DNA of 64,000 nt from Candidatus Marinacidobacterales bacterium (GTDB lineage Bacteria > Acidobacteriota > Vicinamibacteria > Marinacidobacterales > DATDRI01): contig OZ245365.1 in assembly GCA_965226495.1 (NCBI GenBank), positions 6,016,001 to 6,080,000 on the forward strand, written 5' to 3'. This document shows positions 1 through 7,039 of the stretch, one piece after another. Made by a program: the position numbers and the translations under genes. Under the pieces are notes generated by a model. That model was given only the letters and a program-made list of their open reading frames with translations. It was not told the origin of the DNA and made no database searches. Each line of letters begins with the position of its first letter. Positions within the stretch are counted from its first letter, which is position 1.

Positions 1-451
1 CCGCCACAAGTGCTGCGGCCGTCCGCACGTGGTTCCAGGCCGTCCACCCGGCGACGTAGCCAGCCCAGAGACGGCCTCCCTCGGCGCTCGCCGGCTCAAC
101 TGCCGCCAGGGCGTCATTCCTCGGCACGTTGAACACGATCGTCACTAGAATCGTTCCGAAAAGATAGAGCAGGCTGCCCACGAGCAGGAAAACGGCGCCG
201 GGTCTGTGCCAGCCGAGCAGAGAGGAGATGACCAGGATGACGCAACCGACAGCCGTCCCAAAAAAGGCCGTCATGAACATCGGATTGATTACCGTAACGT
301 TGATGGACTGCATGGCGGCAATGCCTTGGGCGGGCGGGAGTCGGTCGAGCGCCTTCATCACGAAGGTCGAGAAGGCGAAGAAAATACCCGCCACTAGCCC
401 GGCGCCAACGGCCGAGATGAGTGTTAGGACGGGAGTGAATCCGTCGGTCAT
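1..451 (-). CDS. DUF1772 / anthrone oxygenase family membrane protein (runs off window start)
   Basis: Manual translation from ATG at 451: MTDGFTPVLTLISAVGAGLVAGIFFAFSTFVMKAL...AMQSINV...NVPRNDAL...WTAWNHVRT. The ATG overlaps the stop of the upstream NmrA gene (ATGA). Confidence 0.8.
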   Translation of the reverse strand, partial: MTDGFTPVLTLISAVGAGLVAGIFFAFSTFVMKALDRLPPAQGIAAMQSINVTVINPMFMTAFFGTAVGCVILVISSLLGWHRPGAVFLLVGSLLYLFGTILVTIVFNVPRNDALAAVEPASAEGGRLWAGYVAGWTAWNHVRTAAALVA

Positions 452-1332
452 CTCGGGCCCTGCTCCGCTCCCATATCCCAGATGCCAGTGGTAGCGGCCT
501 CCCGCGCGTACTCCGCGAATCGTCTCGGATCTCGTTCCGTCACCTGCTTGATTTCGTTTGTAATACGGCTCGCCCGATCCTCTCGAAAGTAGCGCTCCAG
601 GTCCAGCATCCGATCCGCGAGCTCCTCAGGCATGCCCTCCGCCAGCATACCGCCCTTTAAATCCGACGGAGAGAGGCTGACGTGATTGATCGGCCGCCCA
701 AGCACGTTCGACAGCTCGGTCGCATACTCGTCATAGGTGAGCGCCTCGGACCCGGTCAACGTGTATGCCTTTCCCTTGTGGTTAGGCTCAGTCAACGCCT
801 TCACAGCCACAGCCGCGATGTCACGCACGTCCACATGGCTGATCCTTGCCTGGCCGCTCGCGCTGTAAAATACCGACTCAGCCCTGATCGAGTTGGCCAT
901 GAACGTTGCGGCGTTCTGCATGAAGCTATTCGGGCGGAGAAACGTCCATGCCAAGCCGCTCAACTCGATCGCAGTCTCGACCGGCCGATGGACCTTTGCT
1001 AGGCTGTACTCCTCCTCGGCGGCTCCCATGACGGACTGCTTCACGATGTCGTGTACATCCACCGCCTTCGCCGCCTCAACGGCGTTCAGCTCGAGCTCCG
1101 TCTGGTTTAAGGCGTTGGGCCCAAGGAGAAACACCTTGTCACATCCCTGAAACGCAGCACGAAGGGTCTCGGGACGATTGTAGTCGACGACGACAGCTTC
1201 AATCCCTCTCGCACGTGCGGCTTCGGCCTTTTTGTTGGAGAAGTAGGCCGCGCGAAACGGCGCCTTTGCTGATTCAAGCTGTCGGATAACTTCACTACTG
1301 ACAGTCCCACTCGCTCCGGTGATGCAAATCAT
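448..1332 (-). CDS. NmrA/SDR-like NAD(P)H-binding oxidoreductase (cassette gene)
   Basis: MICITGASGTVS Rossmann start, LRPNSFMQN and DVRDIA motifs. RBS AAGGAGG lies upstream of ATG 1332. The longer ORF-track start falls inside the attC. Confidence 0.85.
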   Translation of the reverse strand: MICITGASGTVSSEVIRQLESAKAPFRAAYFSNKKAEAARARGIEAVVVDYNRPETLRAAFQGCDKVFLLGPNALNQTELELNAVEAAKAVDVHDIVKQSVMGAAEEEYSLAKVHRPVETAIELSGLAWTFLRPNSFMQNAATFMANSIRAESVFYSASGQARISHVDVRDIAAVAVKALTEPNHKGKAYTLTGSEALTYDEYATELSNVLGRPINHVSLSPSDLKGGMLAEGMPEELADRMLDLERYFREDRASRITNEIKQVTERDPRRFAEYAREAATTGIWDMGAEQGPR

Positions 1333-1382
1333 ATGTCCTTGCCTCCTTTCAAGACGATAGATAGCGACTGTTGCAAGTAGCC

Positions 1383-1502
1383 GCCTAACAGCAGCGATGA
1401 GTGGCGGCACGGCTAAAGCCTAGCCGAAGCGACCACACACCGACAAATTGTCTTATGCGTTCACGAAGCCTCTGTGCCGTCGGCTCGATCGCTTAGTTAG
1501 AC
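1383..1502 (-). repeat. attC site (120 bp)
   Basis: Plus strand GCCTAAC...GTTAGAC with inverted arms GCGATGAGTGGCGGCAC / GTGCCGTCGGCTCGATCGC. Confidence 0.9.
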
Positions 1503-1509
1503 CGATATC

Positions 1510-1779
1510 TCACTTTGAGACCTTCTTGCCGTATCGAGCGAGTTCTTCCCGAACAACACTACGCAGAGTTGACTTTAAGTTTTCCTCCTGCCCGTCGACA
1601 TATTCTCGAAGGGCCGCGTTAATTAGTGTCTGGTAGTTCCCGCCGCCGGCTTCATGGACTCGGTCTCGAAACCACTGGAGAAGGTTGTCGTCAATTCGAA
1701 TCGTGATCCGAGTCTTGCCTGGAGGCGTTTTAATAACTGCTCCCCTCTTACCTCGACTGAAGTCGTATTCTTTCTTCAT
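1510..1779 (-). CDS. brnA: BrnA-family antitoxin
   Basis: EYDFSRGKRG...KTRITIRID...WFR...NYQTLINAALREY; directly downstream of a BrnT-like gene. Confidence 0.85.
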   Translation of the reverse strand: MKKEYDFSRGKRGAVIKTPPGKTRITIRIDDNLLQWFRDRVHEAGGGNYQTLINAALREYVDGQEENLKSTLRSVVREELARYGKKVSK

Positions 1780-2047
1780 CTCTCACCTTCGTAACGACTA
1801 CGTTCCGACCGTGTCGCCAGCCCCGCCGAGATCAATCTCACGATCTCCTCCGCCACGTGTAAACGACAACGAGGCATCGCCCGACGGCGTCCATGCCAAG
1901 AGTCACGTAACGTTTTTCTTCATCGACAGAGTCGTCCATGACTGTGACGGCAAGATCATCAAACAGAACCGTCGCGGCGTCGGCAAAGTTCACACCGTGC
2001 TTCTCGAGGTTGGACTCAGCTTTGCGGCTGTCCCACTCGAGCTCCAC
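1776..2047 (-). pseudogene. brnT: BrnT-family toxin, frameshifted
   Basis: MELEWDSRKAESNLEKHGVNFADA...EKRY...VVVYTWR stops early at 1838. The expected C-terminus EEIVRLISAGLATRSERSRYEGER* continues in another frame to 1776, overlapping the brnA ATG. Confidence 0.8.
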
Positions 2048-2053
2048 TATCTA

Positions 2054-2082
2054 AGTATATGCACACCCGTACATACAGGCAA
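2054..2082 (-). promoter_or_regulatory. Putative sigma70 promoter of the brnTA cassette
   Basis: Minus strand TTGCCT-N17-TATACT just upstream of the toxin start. Confidence 0.5.
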
Positions 2083-2116
2083 ATGAGGTTTCGGCGTGCG
2101 GAGCGGCACCAATTCG

Positions 2117-2239
2117 GTCTAACAGTAGCGATGAGCGGCCGCACGGCGGTGACGTTGCCGAAGCCCGCCGACGCTGCCGACCCAGCGCCTCATTGCTTCA
2201 CGAAGTCTCGGTGCCGTCCGCTCGATCGCTTAGTTAGCC
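2117..2239 (-). repeat. attC site (123 bp)
   Basis: GTCTAAC...GTTAGCC with arms closely related to the attC at 1383-1502. Confidence 0.9.
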
Positions 2240-2241
2240 GG

Positions 2242-2424
2242 CGCGAATTCATAAAGTAAGTGCAACACAGCTCCCGGATGAGGTGACCTGGAATGTGCCA
2301 CGATTCCTCAAACGACCAAGAATGGGGACTCGCTAATGACTTATTACCAGATCACCTCGGAAGAACGCTACACCATCGCGGCGCTGCGACGGGAGGGATT
2401 TTGCTCGGCCGAGATCGCGCGGCG
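2242..2424 (+). mobile_element. IS30-family left-end fragment (183 bp)
   Basis: Matches 4599-4781 apart from one mismatch I found (2314 G vs 4671 A). Includes the left IR and the first ~29 transposase codons. Confidence 0.9.
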
Positions 2425-2432
2425 AGCCCGAC

Positions 2433-2932
2433 GTCTAACTGGAGCCAAACCAGGGATAAAACCTAAACGATGCCTTCCTTCGAACTGTGCCTTTCGAGCA
2501 CCCAGTCGCATCGTGGTGACACGCCCCGGCAGCCCCTTCGCGTGATTGGCGTCTCGCTTGCTCCCCGACCAACAACTTGCGCTCGCGGGCTCGTCTTCTC
2601 CCGCTGCTCTGCCCCTCACCCGATCCCGTTTCTAACGAACCCGAGCTCGCTCAGGTCGTACCCTTTGATTGGGACGGTACGAGGGTACCCATGGGTTTCT
2701 AGTGCCGCAGGACGCTCCATGTTCCTGCACCGTCGTGCGCGAGGCTTCATCGCTTCACGCTCCGACGGCTGAGCCTCTATAGGTGTTTGGTACGGAGCTT
2801 CGGCTCACGTACCCGCTCCTCGAAACGAAGTCAGAGCAAATCCATCGAGCCTTCGACTTCCTTACAGGCACGCGCCCGTGCCTTCGGCAGAGATCTACCC
2901 CTTGACACGCGGGGGCCTGATAGGTGTTAGGC
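2433..2932. other. ORF-less structured segment bounded by attC core boxes; possible IS1111-type right-end ncRNA remnant
   Basis: Starts with GTCTAAC and ends with GTTAGGC. Several plus-strand hairpins, including GAGC-TTCG-GCTC and GGCACG-CGCC-CGTGCC. TTGACA at 2902-2907. No credible ORF. Confidence 0.45.
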
Positions 2933-2933
2933 T

Positions 2934-3428
2934 TCACTTGAATGACCTATATACGGTCTCAAAGAGGCGAGCGGTTAAGTTAATCGCATTTCGGTTCATT
3001 ACAATACGATCACCGTGGAATTCCATGTGACAAGGATAAACATTACCTTTATCGTCATGAATCTTGCCATCTTTGAGATCTTGGCAGTATTGTTGAATAT
3101 TGGCGATATCCGTGGCGTTCGTGGAGTCTAAGTCTTTTGGGATTGAGTCTTTGTGAACAAATGCGTTTCGTACAATCCAATGTAGAACTAAGTCTCTCTT
3201 TGCGGCGTTACTGTTCATGGACGACCACCATTTTCGGCCAAGCTTTCCTTCAGCGTACGCATAACAACCAACCAACATTGTTCCTGCAATAACATTCCAT
3301 GCTTCTGGATCATTACTCAGCCACTGACTTCGATTAGCTGTATCTTCTGACCATCGCTCGACCCCATGATCAAGGGCTTCTTCTAGCCCTCTAGCCATCC
3401 AGAAAATTGATTTCGGTATTTTTTGCAT
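2934..3428 (-). CDS. Hypothetical cassette protein, AT-rich
   Basis: ATG lies just inside a GTTAGGC box, and the stop is followed at once by GCCTAAC. Visibly lower GC than the flanks. No family recognised. Confidence 0.7.
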   Translation of the reverse strand: MQKIPKSIFWMARGLEEALDHGVERWSEDTANRSQWLSNDPEAWNVIAGTMLVGCYAYAEGKLGRKWWSSMNSNAAKRDLVLHWIVRNAFVHKDSIPKDLDSTNATDIANIQQYCQDLKDGKIHDDKGNVYPCHMEFHGDRIVMNRNAINLTARLFETVYRSFK

Positions 3429-3433
3429 AAGAA

Positions 3434-3451
3434 GCCTAACAGTTATTAGGC
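3434..3451 (-). other. Internal attI-like simple site
   Basis: GCCTAACAGTTATTAGGC shares the 14-mer CTAACAGTTATTAG with the array-terminal site at 7120-7133. No attC hairpin present. Confidence 0.6.
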
Positions 3452-3482
3452 AGCAATGACTTGCCGCGGCCACGATAAGCGT

Positions 3483-3893
3483 CTATGACGCGCGTCGAAG
3501 TCTTCGGATGCTCCATAGACCTACCAAAACGCCCAGCGCTTGCGATACGGCAACAAACAGAGCACTGGCTCGAAACAATCCCTGGGCATCCCCGGGCGGC
3601 AAATGCTCCACATGATCGGGCGAAACCGCAACGTAGTGATAATAGACGCCGAAGACAAGTGCCGCCGCCATCGACCCAATCAGGATGACCGCGCCTAGCC
3701 GAGCATGAGCGGTCCAAAGAAGCATCGCGGCTGCAAGGGGACTCAGCCCGATGACAAGCAGGATGAACGTCTCCTGCCACTTCGACATTTCGACACCTAG
3801 TTCCGAATGAGCCGCCCCGTGCGTTGCGTTGACTAGAACGTGCACGACGACGACCACGGTTCCAGCCCAAGCTACGGCGCGTCCCTTGCTCAT
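3483..3893 (-). CDS. Hypothetical 4-TM membrane protein with several His residues (cassette gene)
   Basis: Four hydrophobic segments; HGAAH, YYHY and PDHVEH motifs; starts 10 bp inside the attC R' box. Confidence 0.7.
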   Translation of the reverse strand: MSKGRAVAWAGTVVVVVHVLVNATHGAAHSELGVEMSKWQETFILLVIGLSPLAAAMLLWTAHARLGAVILIGSMAAALVFGVYYHYVAVSPDHVEHLPPGDAQGLFRASALFVAVSQALGVLVGLWSIRRLRRAS

Positions 3894-3902
3894 TCTTCGA
3901 CT

Positions 3903-3998
3903 GCCTAACAGGGTGTTCAGCGGCAAGCGGCGCGTCTTACAACACCCTTTTGCCTCTCCCGGTTCGCGCCGATTGTCCGCTGCAACACCGCGTTAGGC
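3903..3998 (-). repeat. attC site (96 bp)
   Basis: Minus strand GCCTAAC GCGGTGTTGCAGCGGAC...GCCGCTGAACACCCT GTTAGGC. The extra base in the L'' arm sets the array orientation to minus. Confidence 0.92.
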
Positions 3999-4043
3999 GC
4001 CACCTCGCGGGGGACAACCCGACGAAATACAAAAGCTTGGACA

Positions 4044-4445
4044 CTAGGCTGAGGGGACGACGGACCATATATCCTTCGCGAGTTTCCAAGAGCCGTCATC
4101 CTGTCGTCGAAACATGTGGATCCCGTGCCCGCTTATCTCCATCGGACCGCCACCTTCCTTCGGCGCCATCGTCAGCTCGTAGGTGTATCTCTGGAATGCC
4201 CAATCACCCGACACCACAATCTCCTCGTCTTTGAACGGCTTAAGGCTAGCGACCCCCTCATCCGTGAACCCGCGAAGGAATTGATGGGCGTCGGCACCTT
4301 TGACAGGCTTTTCACCTGGCGGAATCATTTCCAGGTCATCTGTCACCAACGCAAGCAGACCGTCAGCATCTCCTCCATTCACTGACTCCCTCCAACGCTG
4401 GAGGACAGTCTGGACATCATGAATATCGGTATCTTGATTGCCCAT
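4044..4445 (-). CDS. NTF2-like / DUF4440 (YybH-type) protein (cassette gene)
   Basis: W...GDADGLLALVTDD...V.G...VSGDWAF...RRQDDGSWKLAKDIWS; RBS AAGGAG upstream. Confidence 0.85.
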   Translation of the reverse strand: MGNQDTDIHDVQTVLQRWRESVNGGDADGLLALVTDDLEMIPPGEKPVKGADAHQFLRGFTDEGVASLKPFKDEEIVVSGDWAFQRYTYELTMAPKEGGGPMEISGHGIHMFRRQDDGSWKLAKDIWSVVPSA

Positions 4446-4480
4446 GACCGACTCCTTTCACGGAAATTTGAGTCCTGTGC

Positions 4481-4596
4481 GTCTAACGTTGAGTTGAGCG
4501 GCGGCACTGCAATGACGTCGCCGAAGGCGCCAGCGTTCACGATAACTCATACTTTACCGAAAGCTCTGTGCCGTCCGCTCCAACTCATTGTTAGCT
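4481..4596 (-). repeat. attC site (116 bp)
   Basis: GTCTAAC GTTGAGTTGAGCGGCGGCAC...GTGCCGTCCGCTCCAACTCATT GTTAGCT. Confidence 0.92.
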
Positions 4597-4598
4597 GG

Positions 4599-5676
4599 CG
4601 CGAATTCATAAAGTAAGTGCAACACAGCTCCCGGATGAGGTGACCTGGAATGTGCCACGATTCCTCAAACAACCAAGAATGGGGACTCGCTAATGACTTA
4701 TTACCAGATCACCTCGGAAGAACGCTACACCATCGCGGCGCTGCGACGGGAGGGATTTTGCTCGGCCGAGATCGCGCGGCGCCTGGGGCGCCACCGGAGC
4801 ACCATCTCGAGAGAGGTCAGGAGGAACAGCTCACCTAGTGATGGATGCTACCGGCCGAGCAAGGCCATCGAGAGAACGAACGGACGACGCTCGCGGTCTC
4901 GCCGGAACCAGTACTTCACAAAGGCCGACTTTGCCCTGGTGGAGAAGAAGCTTAAGGCCGACTGGAGCCCAGAGCAGATCTCCGGCCACCTGCGCCTTCA
5001 CGGCGAGCTCTCGATCAGCCACGAGACGATCTACACCCACGTTTGGCGGGACAAGGAGGCCGGAGGACATCTATACCGCCACCTTCGATGCTCGCCCAAA
5101 CTTAGACGCAAGCGCCACAACAGCTACGACAGCCGAGGCCGCCTGGCCGGGAAGCGTCACATCTCCGAGCGGCCGTCTTGTATCGACAAGCGCCGTGCCG
5201 TTGGCCACTGGGAGATTGACACCGTGGTAGGAAAAGACGCGCCGGACTGCGTCACCACGCTCGTGGAACGAAAGACGGGCTATGCGCTGATCGGCAAACT
5301 GTCCGACCGCAGCATGTTCGGCACTAGCCAGCGAACGAAGATGTTGCTCCGGCGGGTGCCGGATCAGGTCAAGACCATCACCGCGGACAATGGCACGGAG
5401 TTCCACGACTACGAATCCGTCGAGGAAGCGACCGGCGTCAAGTTCTACTTTGCAACTCCCTATCACTCATGGGAGAGAGGCAGCAACGAGAACTTCAATG
5501 GATTGCTACGACAATACCTGCCGAAGCGCACCAGCCAAGCAGCGCTCACGCAACGCCACTGCGATGGTATCGCAAAGAAGCTCAACACACGGCCCCGCAA
5601 GAGGCTCGGTTACCGCACACCGGAGGAACGTTTCCATGGGAACTAACGAATGGTGCGCTTCAAACTTGAAGTCACA
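4599..5676 (+). mobile_element. IS30-family insertion sequence, 1078 bp
   Basis: Imperfect IRs CGCGAATTCATAAAGTAAGTGCAAC and (reverse complement) TGTGACTTCAAGTTTGAAGCGCACC. TGG direct repeats at 4596-4598 and 5677-5679. Confidence 0.88.
4693..5646 (+). CDS. IS30-family DDE transposase
   Basis: N-terminal HTH (IARRLGRHRSTISRE), WSPEQI, GHWEIDTV, TADNGTEF, WERGSNENFNGLLRQYLPK, RPRKRLGY. Confidence 0.96.
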   Translation: MTYYQITSEERYTIAALRREGFCSAEIARRLGRHRSTISREVRRNSSPSDGCYRPSKAIERTNGRRSRSRRNQYFTKADFALVEKKLKADWSPEQISGHLRLHGELSISHETIYTHVWRDKEAGGHLYRHLRCSPKLRRKRHNSYDSRGRLAGKRHISERPSCIDKRRAVGHWEIDTVVGKDAPDCVTTLVERKTGYALIGKLSDRSMFGTSQRTKMLLRRVPDQVKTITADNGTEFHDYESVEEATGVKFYFATPYHSWERGSNENFNGLLRQYLPKRTSQAALTQRHCDGIAKKLNTRPRKRLGYRTPEERFHGN

Positions 5677-5830
5677 TGGCGCGTATCCTTACTGCTTCCA
5701 TGAACGTGGCCGCGCGAACCAGACGCGCTATGAGAACAAGTACTTGCGTCACGCCGGGGCTGGCGCCCATAACTCCGTCGGGCCGCAGCGCCCGCAACCA
5801 GAGTGAGCTGCTGGTCTTCTACCATAGGAA

Positions 5831-7039
5831 TCAATTCCCATGCAGCGCGCGATAGGGCACGTCCCCGGCAGATTGCGCGACTTCCAGGCCCAACTCGTGC
5901 GCTCGTGCAGCCGCAGTGAGCAGTGATTCTGTGGTGACTGCAAACGGCTCATTAGCTACAAAAGGAAGCATCATAGCTGTTTTCATCACGTCGCCTAGTT
6001 GCGCCTCGTTGGACAACGACAGCGATATCTGCCCAAGGTGGGCAGGCAAGCCAACTTTGGCAAAAAATCCCGCCACCTTTCGGGCCTCATCAAAGCTTTT
6101 CTCTAGAACGAGTTGGGTTAGCAACCCAATCGCCACCATCTCGCCGTGCATGTAGTTGCGATGCACCTCAGGAACCACTGTTAAACCCTGAGCGATCGAA
6201 TGAGCGACCGCCAGCCCGCCACTCTCAAACCCCATGCCGCTTAAGAGCGTATTCGCCTCGACAATGTTCTCGAGCGCGTCATTGACTTCAGAGCGCTTCA
6301 CAGCTTCCACCGCCGATAGGCCGTACTCAAACAAGGTGTCGGCGCACAGCTCGCCAATAGCGCTCGTGGCCAAGGTGGGGCGCGCTCCTAACACTGATCT
6401 TGCCCGAGGATTATCGAAACAAGTCCGCGCCTCATACCACGTTGCCATCGCGTCTCCTATCCCTGCCACCAGAAAGCGCACAGGAGCCTCTGCCACGATT
6501 CGGGTATCGATAGCGACAAGGGCAGGGCTACGGGGGGAGAACTCAACATCGCTAAAGACTCCCTCTGCCGTGTACATCACGGATAACGCAGAGCAAGGCG
6601 CATCAGTTGACGCTAAAGTCGGAACGCTCACCATCGGCATCGCCAATCGCTGGGCGACACATTTGCCCGCATCAAGGCATTTGCCTCCGCCTACCGCGAC
6701 TACGCTGTCCACAGGTGTTGCCATGGCCTGGAGAACCTCGACTACCCGATCAACTTCTTCGGTTGAGCATTCCCCATGAAAAGTCACGACCTCGGATTCG
6801 ATCTTGGCGCTGTTCAAGCTGTTTAGCAGCCTCGCGCCATCTCTTTGCTGGCCTGCTTTATCGATGAGAATCGCGACGCGTTCACTTGGAACGATCGATA
6901 GATACCGGCCGAGATGATCTAAAACACCATCCCCTTGGACATACCTCTGAGGAGCAATAAGAACACGGGGAACGCTGGCGGCTTCTCCTTCTTCGGTGGA
7001 AAACACCGCGTGCGGAATGTAGGGGATCGGGGCTGACAT
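5831..7039 (-). CDS. gldA: Glycerol dehydrogenase (Fe/Zn-type alcohol dehydrogenase family); first cassette
   Basis: PQRYVQG, GGGKCLD, PTLASTDAPCSALSV, GIGDAMATWYEA, GFESGGLAVAHSI, HGEMVA. Confidence 0.9.
   Translation of the reverse strand: MSAPIPYIPHAVFSTEEGEAASVPRVLIAPQRYVQGDGVLDHLGRYLSIVPSERVAILIDKAGQQRDGARLLNSLNSAKIESEVVTFHGECSTEEVDRVVEVLQAMATPVDSVVAVGGGKCLDAGKCVAQRLAMPMVSVPTLASTDAPCSALSVMYTAEGVFSDVEFSPRSPALVAIDTRIVAEAPVRFLVAGIGDAMATWYEARTCFDNPRARSVLGARPTLATSAIGELCADTLFEYGLSAVEAVKRSEVNDALENIVEANTLLSGMGFESGGLAVAHSIAQGLTVVPEVHRNYMHGEMVAIGLLTQLVLEKSFDEARKVAGFFAKVGLPAHLGQISLSLSNEAQLGDVMKTAMMLPFVANEPFAVTTESLLTAAARAHELGLEVAQSAGDVPYRALHGN

What the first reader, a model, noticed from the sequence alone, without database searches (positions are those of the whole stretch)
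2700..2932. Structured non-coding element with an IS1111-like end and an internal copy of its attC junction (orphan seek/bridge-like RNA?)
Seen in sequence: the attC expected after gene 2934-3428 breaks off just after its R'' box. On the plus strand the element ends CCCTTGACACGCGGGGGCCTGATAG-GTGTTAGGC. The junction 9-mer ATAGGTGTT (2920-2928) recurs internally at 2779-2787, beside a GAGC-UUCG-GCUC hairpin, with more hairpins following. Established: IS1111/IS110 elements carry an outward -35 at the right end and a non-coding RNA with target-matching segments, and one subgroup inserts into attC. Inference: a transposase-less remnant or non-autonomous guide RNA programmed against attC. No IS110 recombinase gene is in the window, and I found no clear left IR.
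Basis: partly seen in the sequence, partly recalled or inferred. Interest (0 to 1): 0.72.

Follow-up and report, generated by a model that had tools for sequence, protein, structure and literature searches.

The report
Orphan guide-RNA tail of a dead IS
This stretch is the leftover tail of an RNA-guided jumping gene that had inserted into an integron recombination site: it still carries an intact-looking guide-RNA gene and the element's right end, but the transposase gene is gone, so it is an ordinary relic of a known kind of element.

Summary
ATAGGTGTT occurs only at 2779-2787 and 2920-2928 in the window, and the attC of gene 2934-3428 is cut two bases after its GCCTAAC box. Window 2417-2923 is the complete 3' non-coding region plus right end of an IS1111-type insertion sequence. 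In related genomes the same ~510 bp lies directly downstream of a ~347-aa IS110-family transposase inside a ~1.65-kb element with sub-terminal inverted repeats. In the window the transposase and left end were lost: the tail is fused, across 8 bp of microhomology (2417-2424), to a truncated IS30 copy. The whole genome holds no IS110-type transposase and no second copy. The internal 9-mer is a guide. In 44 distinct guide/junction pairs it tracks the right-end/flank junction (372 of 396 identities; shuffles 343 ± 3; 0 of 10,000 reach it). It sits in a ~230-nt RNA fold supported by compensatory changes. This is a new member of a known kind (seekRNA/bridge-RNA elements that target attC) and it is dead here. 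Its insertion point differs from the ISKpn4 group. No expression was shown.

The parts
2108..2240 (.). Complete attC of the neighbouring cassette (GTCTAAC ... GTTAGCC). A copy of the IS30-family element had inserted at its end.
   Evidence: Read from the sequence. The same attC type recurs at about 1380-1500 and 4490-4600.
2242..2424 (+). Truncated IS30-family element: its left end and the first ~183 bp, including the start of its transposase gene (ATG at 2336).
   Evidence: 99% identical to bases 1-191 of the query that covers the full copy at window 4599-5676. The full copy's protein matches NF033563 IS30 transposase.
2417..2424 (.). Deletion joint: the 8 bp GCGCGGCG are shared by the IS30 interior and by the IS1111-type element just after its transposase stop codon.
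   Evidence: IS30 homology runs to 2424 and homology to the IS1111-type element starts at 2417. The full IS30 reads GATCGCGCGGCGCCTGG. Homologues read AGCAAGCG(C/G)GGC(G/A)AGCCCGACG.
2417..2923 (+). Remnant of an IS1111-type, attC-targeting insertion sequence: the whole 3' non-coding region plus the right end. The transposase gene and left end are missing.
   Evidence: 90-91% identical over its full length to three copies in genome G008 and 79% to one in G010. It aligns to bases 1143-1657 of a 1657-bp reference element, whose transposase stop codon ends at base 1132.
2432..2442 (+). Box 1 (CGTCTAACTGG): candidate guide for the top strand of the attC GTTRRRY box.
   Evidence: A box of this form is present in 31 of 46 relatives examined. 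Its 8 nt pair with the flank in 192 of 240 cells, against 175.9 ± 4.4 in shuffles; 8 of 10,000 shuffles reach the observed value. One relative (L112), with a different flank, matches 8 of 8.
2606..2837 (+). Structured RNA module (seekRNA/bridge-RNA-like), closed by helix 1 (GCTCTGC 2606-2612 with GTCAGAGC 2830-2837). Helices 2-6 lie at 2613-2617/2681-2685, 2620-2628/2670-2677, 2638-2640/2655-2657, 2695-2699/2822-2826 and 2701-2707/2770-2776.
   Evidence: RNAalifold on 46 sequences. Pair counts: 89% of cells paired against 82.4% in shuffles and 32-48% when the partners are slid; 24 pairs changed on both sides against 13.7 in shuffles; 0 of 500 shuffles reach any measure. The window copy forms 38 of the 41 consensus pairs.
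2632..2636 (+). Box 2 (CTAAC, inside the module): a second, weaker candidate top-strand guide.
   Evidence: Its AAC pairs with GTT of the flank in nearly all relatives. It reads TAC in the three relatives whose flank reads GTA. Overall 197 of 235 cells pair against 190.2 ± 3.4 in shuffles; 358 of 10,000 shuffles reach that, so the signal is weak.
2779..2787 (+). Bottom-strand guide ATAGGTGTT: same sense as the last 4 bases of the element plus the first 5 bases of the flank.
   Evidence: 44 distinct guide/junction pairs give 372 of 396 identities against 343.4 ± 3.3 in shuffles; 0 of 10,000 shuffles reach it. Matched changes occur at positions 3, 4, 5, 6 and 9. At position 4 there are 35 Watson-Crick pairs, 8 wobbles and 1 mismatch.
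2789..2813 (+). Hairpin directly 3' of the guide (GGTACG GAGC TTCG GCTC A CGTACC).
   Evidence: Read from the sequence and from single-sequence folds. Relatives have GGUGC...GCACC at the same place, read by eye and not counted.
2902..2907 (+). Outward -35 box TTGACA: half of the promoter that forms when the element circularises.
   Evidence: TTGAC is invariant in all 46 aligned relatives. It lies 16 nt before the element's end, and the left ends start T+GATACT/GATCCT, which gives a 17-nt spacer in a circle. No promoter is formed with the present flank.
2911..2919 (+). Right sub-terminal inverted repeat GGGGGCCTG. Its partner CAGGCCCCC sits in the missing left end.
   Evidence: Left ends of full copies read TGATCCTCATACAGGCCCCC.
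2924..2932 (-). What is left of the attC of cassette 2934-3428: the R'' box GCCTAAC (2932-2926) plus AC. The rest of this attC was lost with the left part of the element.
   Evidence: Read from the sequence. All 15 right-end junctions found in the order abut G-N-GTT....

Best explanation
Window 2417-2923 is the tail of an IS1111-type, RNA-guided insertion sequence. The element once inserted, in its usual orientation, two bases from the GCCTAAC/GTTAGGC box of the attC that belongs to cassette 2934-3428. The tail holds the element's whole 3' non-coding region, which encodes a ~230-nt structured guide RNA (2606-2837) preceded by a conserved box (2432-2442). It also holds the right end, with a sub-terminal inverted repeat and the -35 half of the promoter that forms when the element circularises.

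In an intact element the DEDD transposase binds this RNA. The RNA segment AUAGGUGUU would pair with the bottom strand at the junction of right end and flank. A CUAAC-containing segment would pair with the top strand of the attC GTTRRRY box. Together they direct insertion into attC sites.

Here a deletion removed the left end, the transposase gene and the rest of the attC. It ran between 8 bp of microhomology inside a neighbouring IS30 copy and the first bases after the transposase stop codon. With no IS110-type transposase anywhere in this genome, the RNA gene is an orphan with no partner, and most likely inert.

Shown here: homology to complete elements, the truncation, the absence of a transposase, covariation of guide and junction, and covariation in the fold. 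Inferred: RNA-DNA pairing, the RNA's true ends, the roles of boxes 1 and 2, and inactivity.
For: The same ~510 bp follows an IS110-family transposase gene in G003, G008 and G010. That protein carries PF01548 and PF02371 and matches NF033542 'IS110 family RNA-guided transposase' at 188.9 bits against a cut-off of 140. Full copies are ~1657 bp, with left end TGATCCTCATACAGGCCCCC and right end GGGGGCCTGATAG.

Of 80 more distant loci (56-100% transposase identity, many phyla), 68 carry the homologous module downstream of the gene. Guide and junction covary. Box 1 covaries with the flank. The fold carries compensatory changes, with G-U pairs that fit only the + strand. The window copy keeps 38 of 41 consensus pairs.

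In the own genome there is one copy only, no PF01548 hit, and no tblastn hit better than E = 7.2. The joint with the IS30 fragment is fixed. Contigs from other public runs bridge 2395-2792 and 2763-3700 without differences, so the arrangement is not an assembly artefact.

Literature (sections and passages read): the non-coding region lies downstream of tnp in the IS1111 family; seekRNAs carry matches to both strands of the target, with the top-strand match 5' of the bottom-strand match; ISKpn4, ISPst6 and ISPa25 target one end of attC (PMC11187229). Bridge RNAs were predicted in the right end of 93% of IS1111 elements (PMC11208160).
Against: No transcript of the region was seen. The one RNA-library contig that was laid covers only 2239-2345, inside the multi-copy IS30 end. 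Rfam 15 has no match. No short repeat ('core') shared by both junctions could be identified, so the simple IS621 scheme of target-core-donor does not map cleanly. The guide matches 4 element bases plus 5 flank bases, that is the integrated junction rather than an empty target. Which of box 1 or box 2 is the top-strand guide is open: box 2's signal is weak, and box 1 is missing from 15 of 46 relatives. The homologues are related to one another, so the shuffle tests overstate independence.
Confidence: 0.92

Rival explanations
1. A solo guide-RNA module that moved on its own, as reported for the ssr9 module of ISPpu9. It would be a non-autonomous but still mobile element that parasitises a transposase supplied in trans.
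For: The break lies just after the transposase stop codon, so the entire non-coding region, including box 1, is kept. Relatives hold short derivatives with both ends and the RNA module but little or no transposase gene, for example L022 with 111 bp of left end plus 312 bp of tail. The abstract of PMC12288879 reports circles of ssr9 alone.
Against: The left edge is not an element end. It is a joint inside an IS30 transposase gene across 8 bp of microhomology. There is no left inverted repeat, only one copy in the genome and no transposase to mobilise it. None of the short derivatives in relatives was found in more than one copy.
Confidence: 0.04
2. The orphan RNA has been kept for a host or integron function, for example as a decoy or guide for incoming elements, or as a regulator of the neighbouring cassette.
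For: The fold is nearly intact (38 of 41 pairs). The same arrangement is present in 19 runs that hold at least half of the sampled words, from 7 studies.
Against: Near-identical contigs in other runs may be the same organism, so they do not show selection. No transcript was seen. At about 90% identity to active-looking copies, the remnant may simply be young. No second orphan at an orthologous place was found in the two same-genus genomes: G001 has a different remnant at a different attC, and G002 has none.
Confidence: 0.03
3. The 9-mer repeat is chance or a decayed duplicated attC end, and the region is spacer or cassette debris. Alternatively, the region is a fragment of a group IIC-attC intron.
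For: Two 9-mer matches arise in 2 of 100 shuffles of the window. Group IIC introns are known to insert into attC (PMC3001079: abstract seen in the listing).
Against: The 9-mer covaries with the junction in distant homologues. Those homologues sit beside IS110-family transposases, not reverse transcriptases. No group II intron model matched the region.
Confidence: 0.01

Closest known systems
IS1111-attC group: ISKpn4, ISPst6, ISPa25 (Tetu & Holmes 2008; Post & Hall 2009; seekRNAs shown by Siddiquee et al. 2024, PMC11187229)
   Same: IS1111-type organisation in the homologues: DEDD transposase, non-coding region downstream, sub-terminal inverted repeats, a -35 at the right end, and no target duplication. 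Insertion is into the GCCTAAC (R'') end of attC, with the right end facing the box. The RNA carries matches to both strands of the target, the top-strand match lying 5' of the bottom-strand match.
   Different: Here the insertion point is 2 nt from GTTAG (T|GNGTTAG). The published targets for ISKpn4 and ISPst6 place it 6 nt away (TTGAA*CGAATTGTTAG; Table 1 of the review PMC13604230, passage seen). The non-coding region is ~515 nt with a ~230-nt fold, against published seekRNAs of 82-86 nt (long forms 148-151 nt). Relatedness of the transposases was not tested.
IS621 / ISCro4 bridge RNA system (Durrant et al. 2024, PMC11208160; PDB 8wt6, 9t56)
   Same: An RNA encoded in the element's non-coding end, with unpaired segments that read both DNA strands. 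A promoter is formed across the circle junction.
   Different: The RNA is at the right end, not the left. The transposase is only distantly alike (E = 4.7e-4 to IS621, C-terminal part only). No shared core dinucleotide or separate donor loop could be assigned here.
ISPpu9 and its solo ssr9 modules (PMC12288879, abstract only)
   Same: Copies of the RNA-coding tail exist without the transposase gene.
   Different: There the solo modules arise from their own circles and ssr9 is not needed for transposition. Here the solo copy is a deletion product fused to an IS30 fragment.

Membership tests
IS1111 family (of the IS110 superfamily) | DEDD transposase with PF01548 and PF02371 domains | tested here: not met
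   Not met in the window or its genome. Met in the complete homologues. The window therefore holds a fragment, not a member in working order.
IS1111 family (of the IS110 superfamily) | Long non-coding region downstream of the transposase gene | tested here: met
   In homologues the region that aligns with window 2417-2923 starts about 11 nt after the stop codon. 68 of 80 distant loci have the module downstream.
IS1111 family (of the IS110 superfamily) | Sub-terminal inverted repeats, with a longer terminal extension at the left end | tested here: met
   The right repeat GGGGGCCTG lies at 2911-2919, 4 nt from the end. In full copies CAGGCCCCC lies 11 nt from the left end, 7 nt more than on the right. 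The left repeat was found with at most 2 mismatches of 9 in 56 of 56 loci, but about 5 of these (L066, L086, L090, L095, L099) look like chance matches.
IS1111 family (of the IS110 superfamily) | Promoter formed across the circle junction (-35 in the right end, -10 in the left end) | tested here: inconclusive
   The sequence fits: TTGAC(A), 16 nt, end of element, then T+GATACT (GATCCT in the closest copies). No circle or transcript was observed.
IS1111-attC group (ISKpn4/ISPst6/ISPa25) | Insertion at the group's fixed position in attC (AA*CG, 6 nt before GTTAG) | tested here: not met
   Insertion is 2 nt before GTT(A/R) in the window and at 15 of 15 junctions in the order, and in the relatives. 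The published position is taken from the review table.
IS1111-attC group (ISKpn4/ISPst6/ISPa25) | Transposase closely related to those of the group | not tested
   The reference proteins were seen only in a paper's supplement and were not entered into any tool. NCBIfam gives only the generic IS110 model.
seekRNA / bridge RNA | Segments of the RNA match both strands of the target and change with it | tested here: met
   The bottom-strand guide is strongly supported. For the top-strand guide, box 1 is supported and box 2 only weakly.
seekRNA / bridge RNA | Conserved secondary structure that presents the guides in loops | tested here: met
   41 pairs in 8 helices, 24 of them with changes on both sides. 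0 of 500 shuffles reach any measure, and slid controls pair at 32-48% against 89%.
seekRNA / bridge RNA | The RNA binds the transposase and is needed for circle formation and insertion | not testable with these tools
   Needs biochemistry or transposition assays.

The most novel reading that the evidence does not exclude
The remnant belongs to a large lineage of attC-targeting IS1111-like elements that, as far as my searches show, has not been described. At least 584 relatives were found in one scan of species-representative genomes, across many phyla. The lineage is distinct from ISKpn4/ISPst6/ISPa25: it inserts 2 nt rather than 6 nt from the GTTRRRY box. It uses a much larger, six-helix RNA with two candidate top-strand guides and a bottom-strand guide that spans the element's last four bases plus the flank. 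It also leaves behind intact orphan RNA genes and short derivatives that keep both ends, which an incoming transposase could use or mobilise in trans.
Probability: 0.3. Interest if true: 0.5.

Novelty: new member of a known kind. Interest (0 to 1): 0.3.

Why it matters
For this genome, the stretch explains a broken attC and a stretch without genes in a cassette array. It shows the array was hit by two different insertion sequences and then lost DNA.

More widely, the relatives gathered here form a natural set in which guide, element end and target change together. That set is useful for working out the pairing rules of IS1111-type guide RNAs, which are less well understood than IS621. It also bears on how mobile elements exploit, and may disable, integron recombination sites in environmental bacteria. 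The remnant itself has no evident function.

Tried and rejected
- Rfam 15 on 2000-3600 at E up to 10: only two irrelevant weak matches, at 3186-3397.
- blastn of the region against PLSDB plasmids: no match.
- Single-sequence folds of both strands: z-scores of -2.3 and -2.1, which do not tell the strands apart.
- RNAalifold on 8 close copies: too little variation, with 5 compensatory pairs.
- Group II intron reading: rejected.
- Expression: one metatranscriptome run held 5% of the sampled words, and its single laid contig covers 2239-2345 only, the multi-copy IS30 end. Nothing can be said about transcription of the tail.
- Reciprocal half of the broken IS30 copy: a fragment at genome 5,746,693-5,747,590 starts near the same internal position, but its first bases and its surroundings do not fit.
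- A core repeat shared by both junctions, and a donor-binding segment that changes with the left end: none found by eye.
- Tetu & Holmes 2008 (PMC2447020) is not held. The figures and PDF supplements of Siddiquee et al. that show the ISKpn4 seekRNA fold could not be seen, so no direct comparison of folds was made.
- Earlier findings of this scan: nothing returned.
- The claim that this lineage is undescribed rests only on searches and on the generic NCBIfam name. ISfinder could not be consulted.

Full report
**What is in the sequence.**

The first 5.7 kb of the window is an integron cassette array read on the minus strand. It has small genes, among them a BrnT/BrnA toxin-antitoxin pair at 1510-2047 and a SnoaL-like gene at 4044-4445. 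The genes are separated by attC sites of one type: GYCTAAC ... GTTAGNC on the + strand, at about 1380-1500, 2108-2240 and 4490-4600.

Gene 2934-3428 is followed on its own strand by GCCTAAC (2932-2926) and AC, and then the attC stops. The + strand reads TTGACA (2902-2907), then CGCGGGGGCCTGATAG, then GTGTTAGGC. ATAGGTGTT is found only at 2779-2787 and 2920-2928. Shuffles give 0.16 matches on average, and 2 of 100 shuffles have two or more. The GAGC-TTCG-GCTC hairpin is at 2795-2806, inside a longer stem at 2789-2813.

**What the stretch is.**

The ~510 bp from 2417 to about 2928 occur once in this genome. They recur in relatives:
- 11 of 61 genomes searched, the window's own included, have a match at E ≤ 0.01.
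- 9 of 55 genomes of the order have a match at E ≤ 1e-8.

In G008 (three full-length matches, 90-91% identical), G010 (79%) and G003, the matching DNA lies directly downstream of a ~347-358-aa gene. Its product carries the DEDD_Tnp_IS110 and Transposase_20 domains. It also matches NCBIfam's 'IS110 family RNA-guided transposase' at 188.9 bits, against a cut-off of 140.

Comparing copies defines an element of ~1657 bp:
- Left end: TGATCCTCATACAGGCCCCC.
- Right end: GGGGGCCTGATAG.
- Sub-terminal inverted repeat: CAGGCCCCC / GGGGGCCTG.
- No target duplication.

The window aligns with bases 1143-1657 of that element. The transposase stop codon ends at base 1132. So the window holds the whole 3' non-coding region and the right end, but nothing of the gene or the left end.

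A downstream non-coding region, sub-terminal repeats and a left terminal extension 7 nt longer than the right one are the marks of the IS1111 family, as described by Siddiquee et al. (PMC11187229, sections read).

**How it was truncated.**

To the left of 2417 lies the first ~183 bp of an IS30-family element (2242-2424). That element has 11 copies or fragments in the genome, including the full copy at window 4599-5676. IS30 homology runs to 2424 and IS1111-type homology starts at 2417. The shared 8 bp, GCGCGGCG, occur both inside the IS30 transposase gene and just after the stop codon of the IS1111-type transposase.

The simplest history has three steps:
1. The IS1111-type element inserted into the attC of cassette 2934-3428.
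2. An IS30 copy inserted at the end of the attC at 2240.
3. A deletion between the two 8-bp repeats removed most of IS30, whatever lay between, the rest of the attC, the left end and the transposase gene.

This history is inference.

The whole genome (one contig, 6.34 Mb, 94.8% complete by marker genes) has no PF01548 hit (the same search finds the family in 6 of 14 control genomes). It has no tblastn hit to the G010 transposase better than a 35-residue match at E = 7.2. It has no second copy of the RNA module with either of two nhmmer profiles at E ≤ 10.

Contigs of other public runs bridge 2395-2792 and 2763-3700 without a difference. The arrangement is therefore real, and it is present in 19 runs of 7 studies that hold at least half of the sampled words. 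These may all be the same organism.

**The 9-mer is a guide.**

The first sign came from three plasmid-borne relatives whose transposases are 53-63% identical to the G010 protein. In each, the internal motif and the right-end junction carry the same variant:
- ATAAGTGTT in a Candidatus Manganitrophus plasmid.
- ATATGTGTT in plasmids of Vibrio campbellii and Pseudoalteromonas.

A scan of species-representative genomes then matched 608 stretches. Of these, 584 encode a relative, and the best 80 were kept. An nhmmer profile of the tail found the module downstream of the gene in 68 of those 80 loci, as 73 hits.

Of the 73 hits, 6 lacked the guide columns and 11 lacked the right end or flank. The remaining 56, plus 7 copies examined earlier, gave 44 distinct guide/junction pairs:
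- Over the nine positions, 372 of 396 cells are identical. After shuffling junctions among elements the mean is 343.4 ± 3.3, and 0 of 10,000 shuffles reach the observed value.
- Matched changes occur at position 3 (A to G, one locus), position 4 (G, A, C or T), position 5 (G to A, one locus), position 6 (T to C, one locus) and position 9 (T to A, three loci of one clade).
- At position 4 there are 35 Watson-Crick pairs, 8 wobbles and 1 mismatch. The 8 non-identical cases are all RNA G opposite a bottom-strand T, or RNA U opposite G. That is what pairing of the RNA with the bottom DNA strand predicts.
- Position 6, the second flank base, is mismatched in 13 pairs and appears to be tolerated.

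The loci are related to each other, so these figures overstate independence. However, the changes are of several kinds and lie in several clades.

**The other strand.**

Two CUAAC-containing boxes lie 5' of the 9-mer.

Box 1 (window 2432-2442, CGTCTAACTGG) sits just after the stop codon. A box of this form is present in 31 of 46 relatives examined. Its eight bases can pair with flank bases 3-10 (GTTAGRCN) in 192 of 240 cells, against 175.9 ± 4.4 after shuffling; 8 of 10,000 shuffles reach that. In L112, whose flank is GTGTATTTGA, the box reads UCAAAUAC, an 8 of 8 match.

Box 2 (2632-2636) is inside the fold and present in all aligned copies. Its AAC pairs with GTT, and it reads UAC in the three loci whose flank reads GTA. 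Overall its signal is weak: 197 of 235 cells against 190.2 ± 3.4, with 358 of 10,000 shuffles reaching the observed value.

The order, top-strand match 5' of bottom-strand match with the two overlapping on the target, is the order reported for IS1111-family seekRNAs (PMC11187229). Which box does the work is open.

**The fold.**

On an alignment of 46 sequences, RNAalifold gives a structure closed by GCUCUGC (2606-2612) pairing with GUCAGAGC (2830-2837). Five further helices lie inside it.

Counted on that alignment:
- 89.0% of cells pair, against 82.4% after shuffling and 32-48% when the partners are slid by 1-3 columns.
- 24 of 41 pairs show changes on both sides, against 13.7 in shuffles.
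- 127 cells show changes on both sides, against 40.9 in shuffles.
- 0 of 500 shuffles reach any of the measures.

Frequent G-U pairs fit only the + strand. The 9-mer lies unpaired between helix 6 and the hairpin at 2789-2813. In relatives the stem of that hairpin reads GGUGC/GCACC where the window has GGUAC/GUACC (read by eye). The window copy keeps 38 of the 41 consensus pairs, so the orphan RNA gene looks intact.

**The right end and the promoter.**

TTGAC is invariant in all 46 aligned sequences and ends 16 nt before the element's last base. Left ends begin T+GATACT in most relatives and T+GATCCT in the closest copies. A circle would therefore carry TTGACA, 17 nt, then GATACT, which is the junction promoter known for this family (PMC11187229). 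This is a fit of sequence, not an observation of circles. With the present flank no promoter is formed.

**Target.**

All 15 right-end junctions in the order abut G-N-GTT(A/R)..., and so do nearly all junctions of the wider set. Left flanks end in the variable inner part of attC, commonly ...GCTGCAGCGNNT. Insertion is thus T|GNGTTRRRY, 2 nt from the box, with the right end facing it.

The targets published for ISKpn4, ISPst6 and ISPa25 place the insertion 6 nt from GTTAG, as in TTGAA*CGAATTGTTAG (Table 1 of the review PMC13604230, passage seen). This lineage therefore hits the same end of attC at a different position. Its non-coding region is also far longer than the published seekRNAs of 82-86 nt (long forms 148-151 nt).

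I could not test how its transposase relates to those elements. Their sequences were seen only in a supplement and were not entered into any tool. The solved IS621 and ISCro4 proteins are only distantly alike (E = 4.7e-4 and 2e-3, C-terminal part only).

**What does not fit, or is not known.**

No short core shared by both junctions could be found. The guide matches the integrated junction (four element bases plus five flank bases) rather than an empty target, so the IS621 scheme does not transfer simply. Pairing with the donor flank, which Siddiquee et al. found necessary for circle formation, would explain this, but that is inference.

No transcript was seen. Rfam has no family for this RNA.

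Relatives also hold short derivatives that keep both ends and the RNA module: L022, L005, L007 and L008. They also hold right-end-only remnants: L006, L030 and L031. None was seen in more than one copy, so mobilisation in trans is not shown.

**Verdict.**

The finding is a genuine and correctly read relic of an RNA-guided, attC-targeting IS1111-type element. It is an orphan guide-RNA gene with no transposase in the genome. It is a new member of a known kind. The modest interest lies in the lineage it reveals rather than in the relic itself.

Noticed in passing
window 4599-5676 and 2242-2424; other copies elsewhere in the genome: An IS30-family element with 11 copies or fragments in the genome and 3-bp target duplications. 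In 9 of 11 left flanks GTT(A/T) lies 7-9 nt before the insertion point, and 3 of 11 copies sit right after an attC GTTAGNC box. So a second, unrelated insertion sequence also favours attC-like sequence.
   Followed up: partly
window 1-5700; own genome 1,724,731-1,725,672: The cassette array in the window has no integron integrase beside it; downstream of the IS30 copy comes an ordinary-looking 402-aa gene (5831-7039, minus strand; not scanned against any family library). The only hit above the TIGR02249 cut-off lies 4.3 Mb away, so this is an attC cluster without an integrase.
   Followed up: partly
L094 2668-3145; L015 5925-6777 (= L038): In two relatives a full element is followed in tandem by a second copy of its tail. 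In L094 the second copy starts exactly at the GTGTT of the guide. In L015 it starts at an internal GTGTT. The direct repeat formed by guide and junction seems to act as a break point for duplication.
   Followed up: partly
L022 1387-1835 (G010); L005 1024-1834 (G030); L007; L008: Short derivatives of the element that keep the left end, the right end and the RNA module but have lost most or all of the transposase gene, each sitting in an attC. Several of the break points cluster just upstream of the RNA module (reference bases 1319-1346).
   Followed up: partly
L017 5222-6622 (G003): The G003 copy is interrupted just upstream of the RNA module by an element encoding a 436-aa protein that looks like an IS256-type transposase (judged by eye; not scanned). 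Beside this copy lies a BrnT/BrnA cassette like the one at window 1510-2047.
   Followed up: no
window 2229 joined to 2775, in one contig of run X1: A single contig (depth 8, 33 nt on the shorter side) joins the attC at 2229 to the base just before the guide region, skipping 545 bp. It may come from another strain or organism. Not interpreted.
   Followed up: no
window 2336-2545: The truncated IS30 gene start now reads into the IS1111-type tail as a 69-codon chimeric frame. The IS30 promoter region could therefore drive transcription into the orphan RNA gene. Not tested.
   Followed up: no
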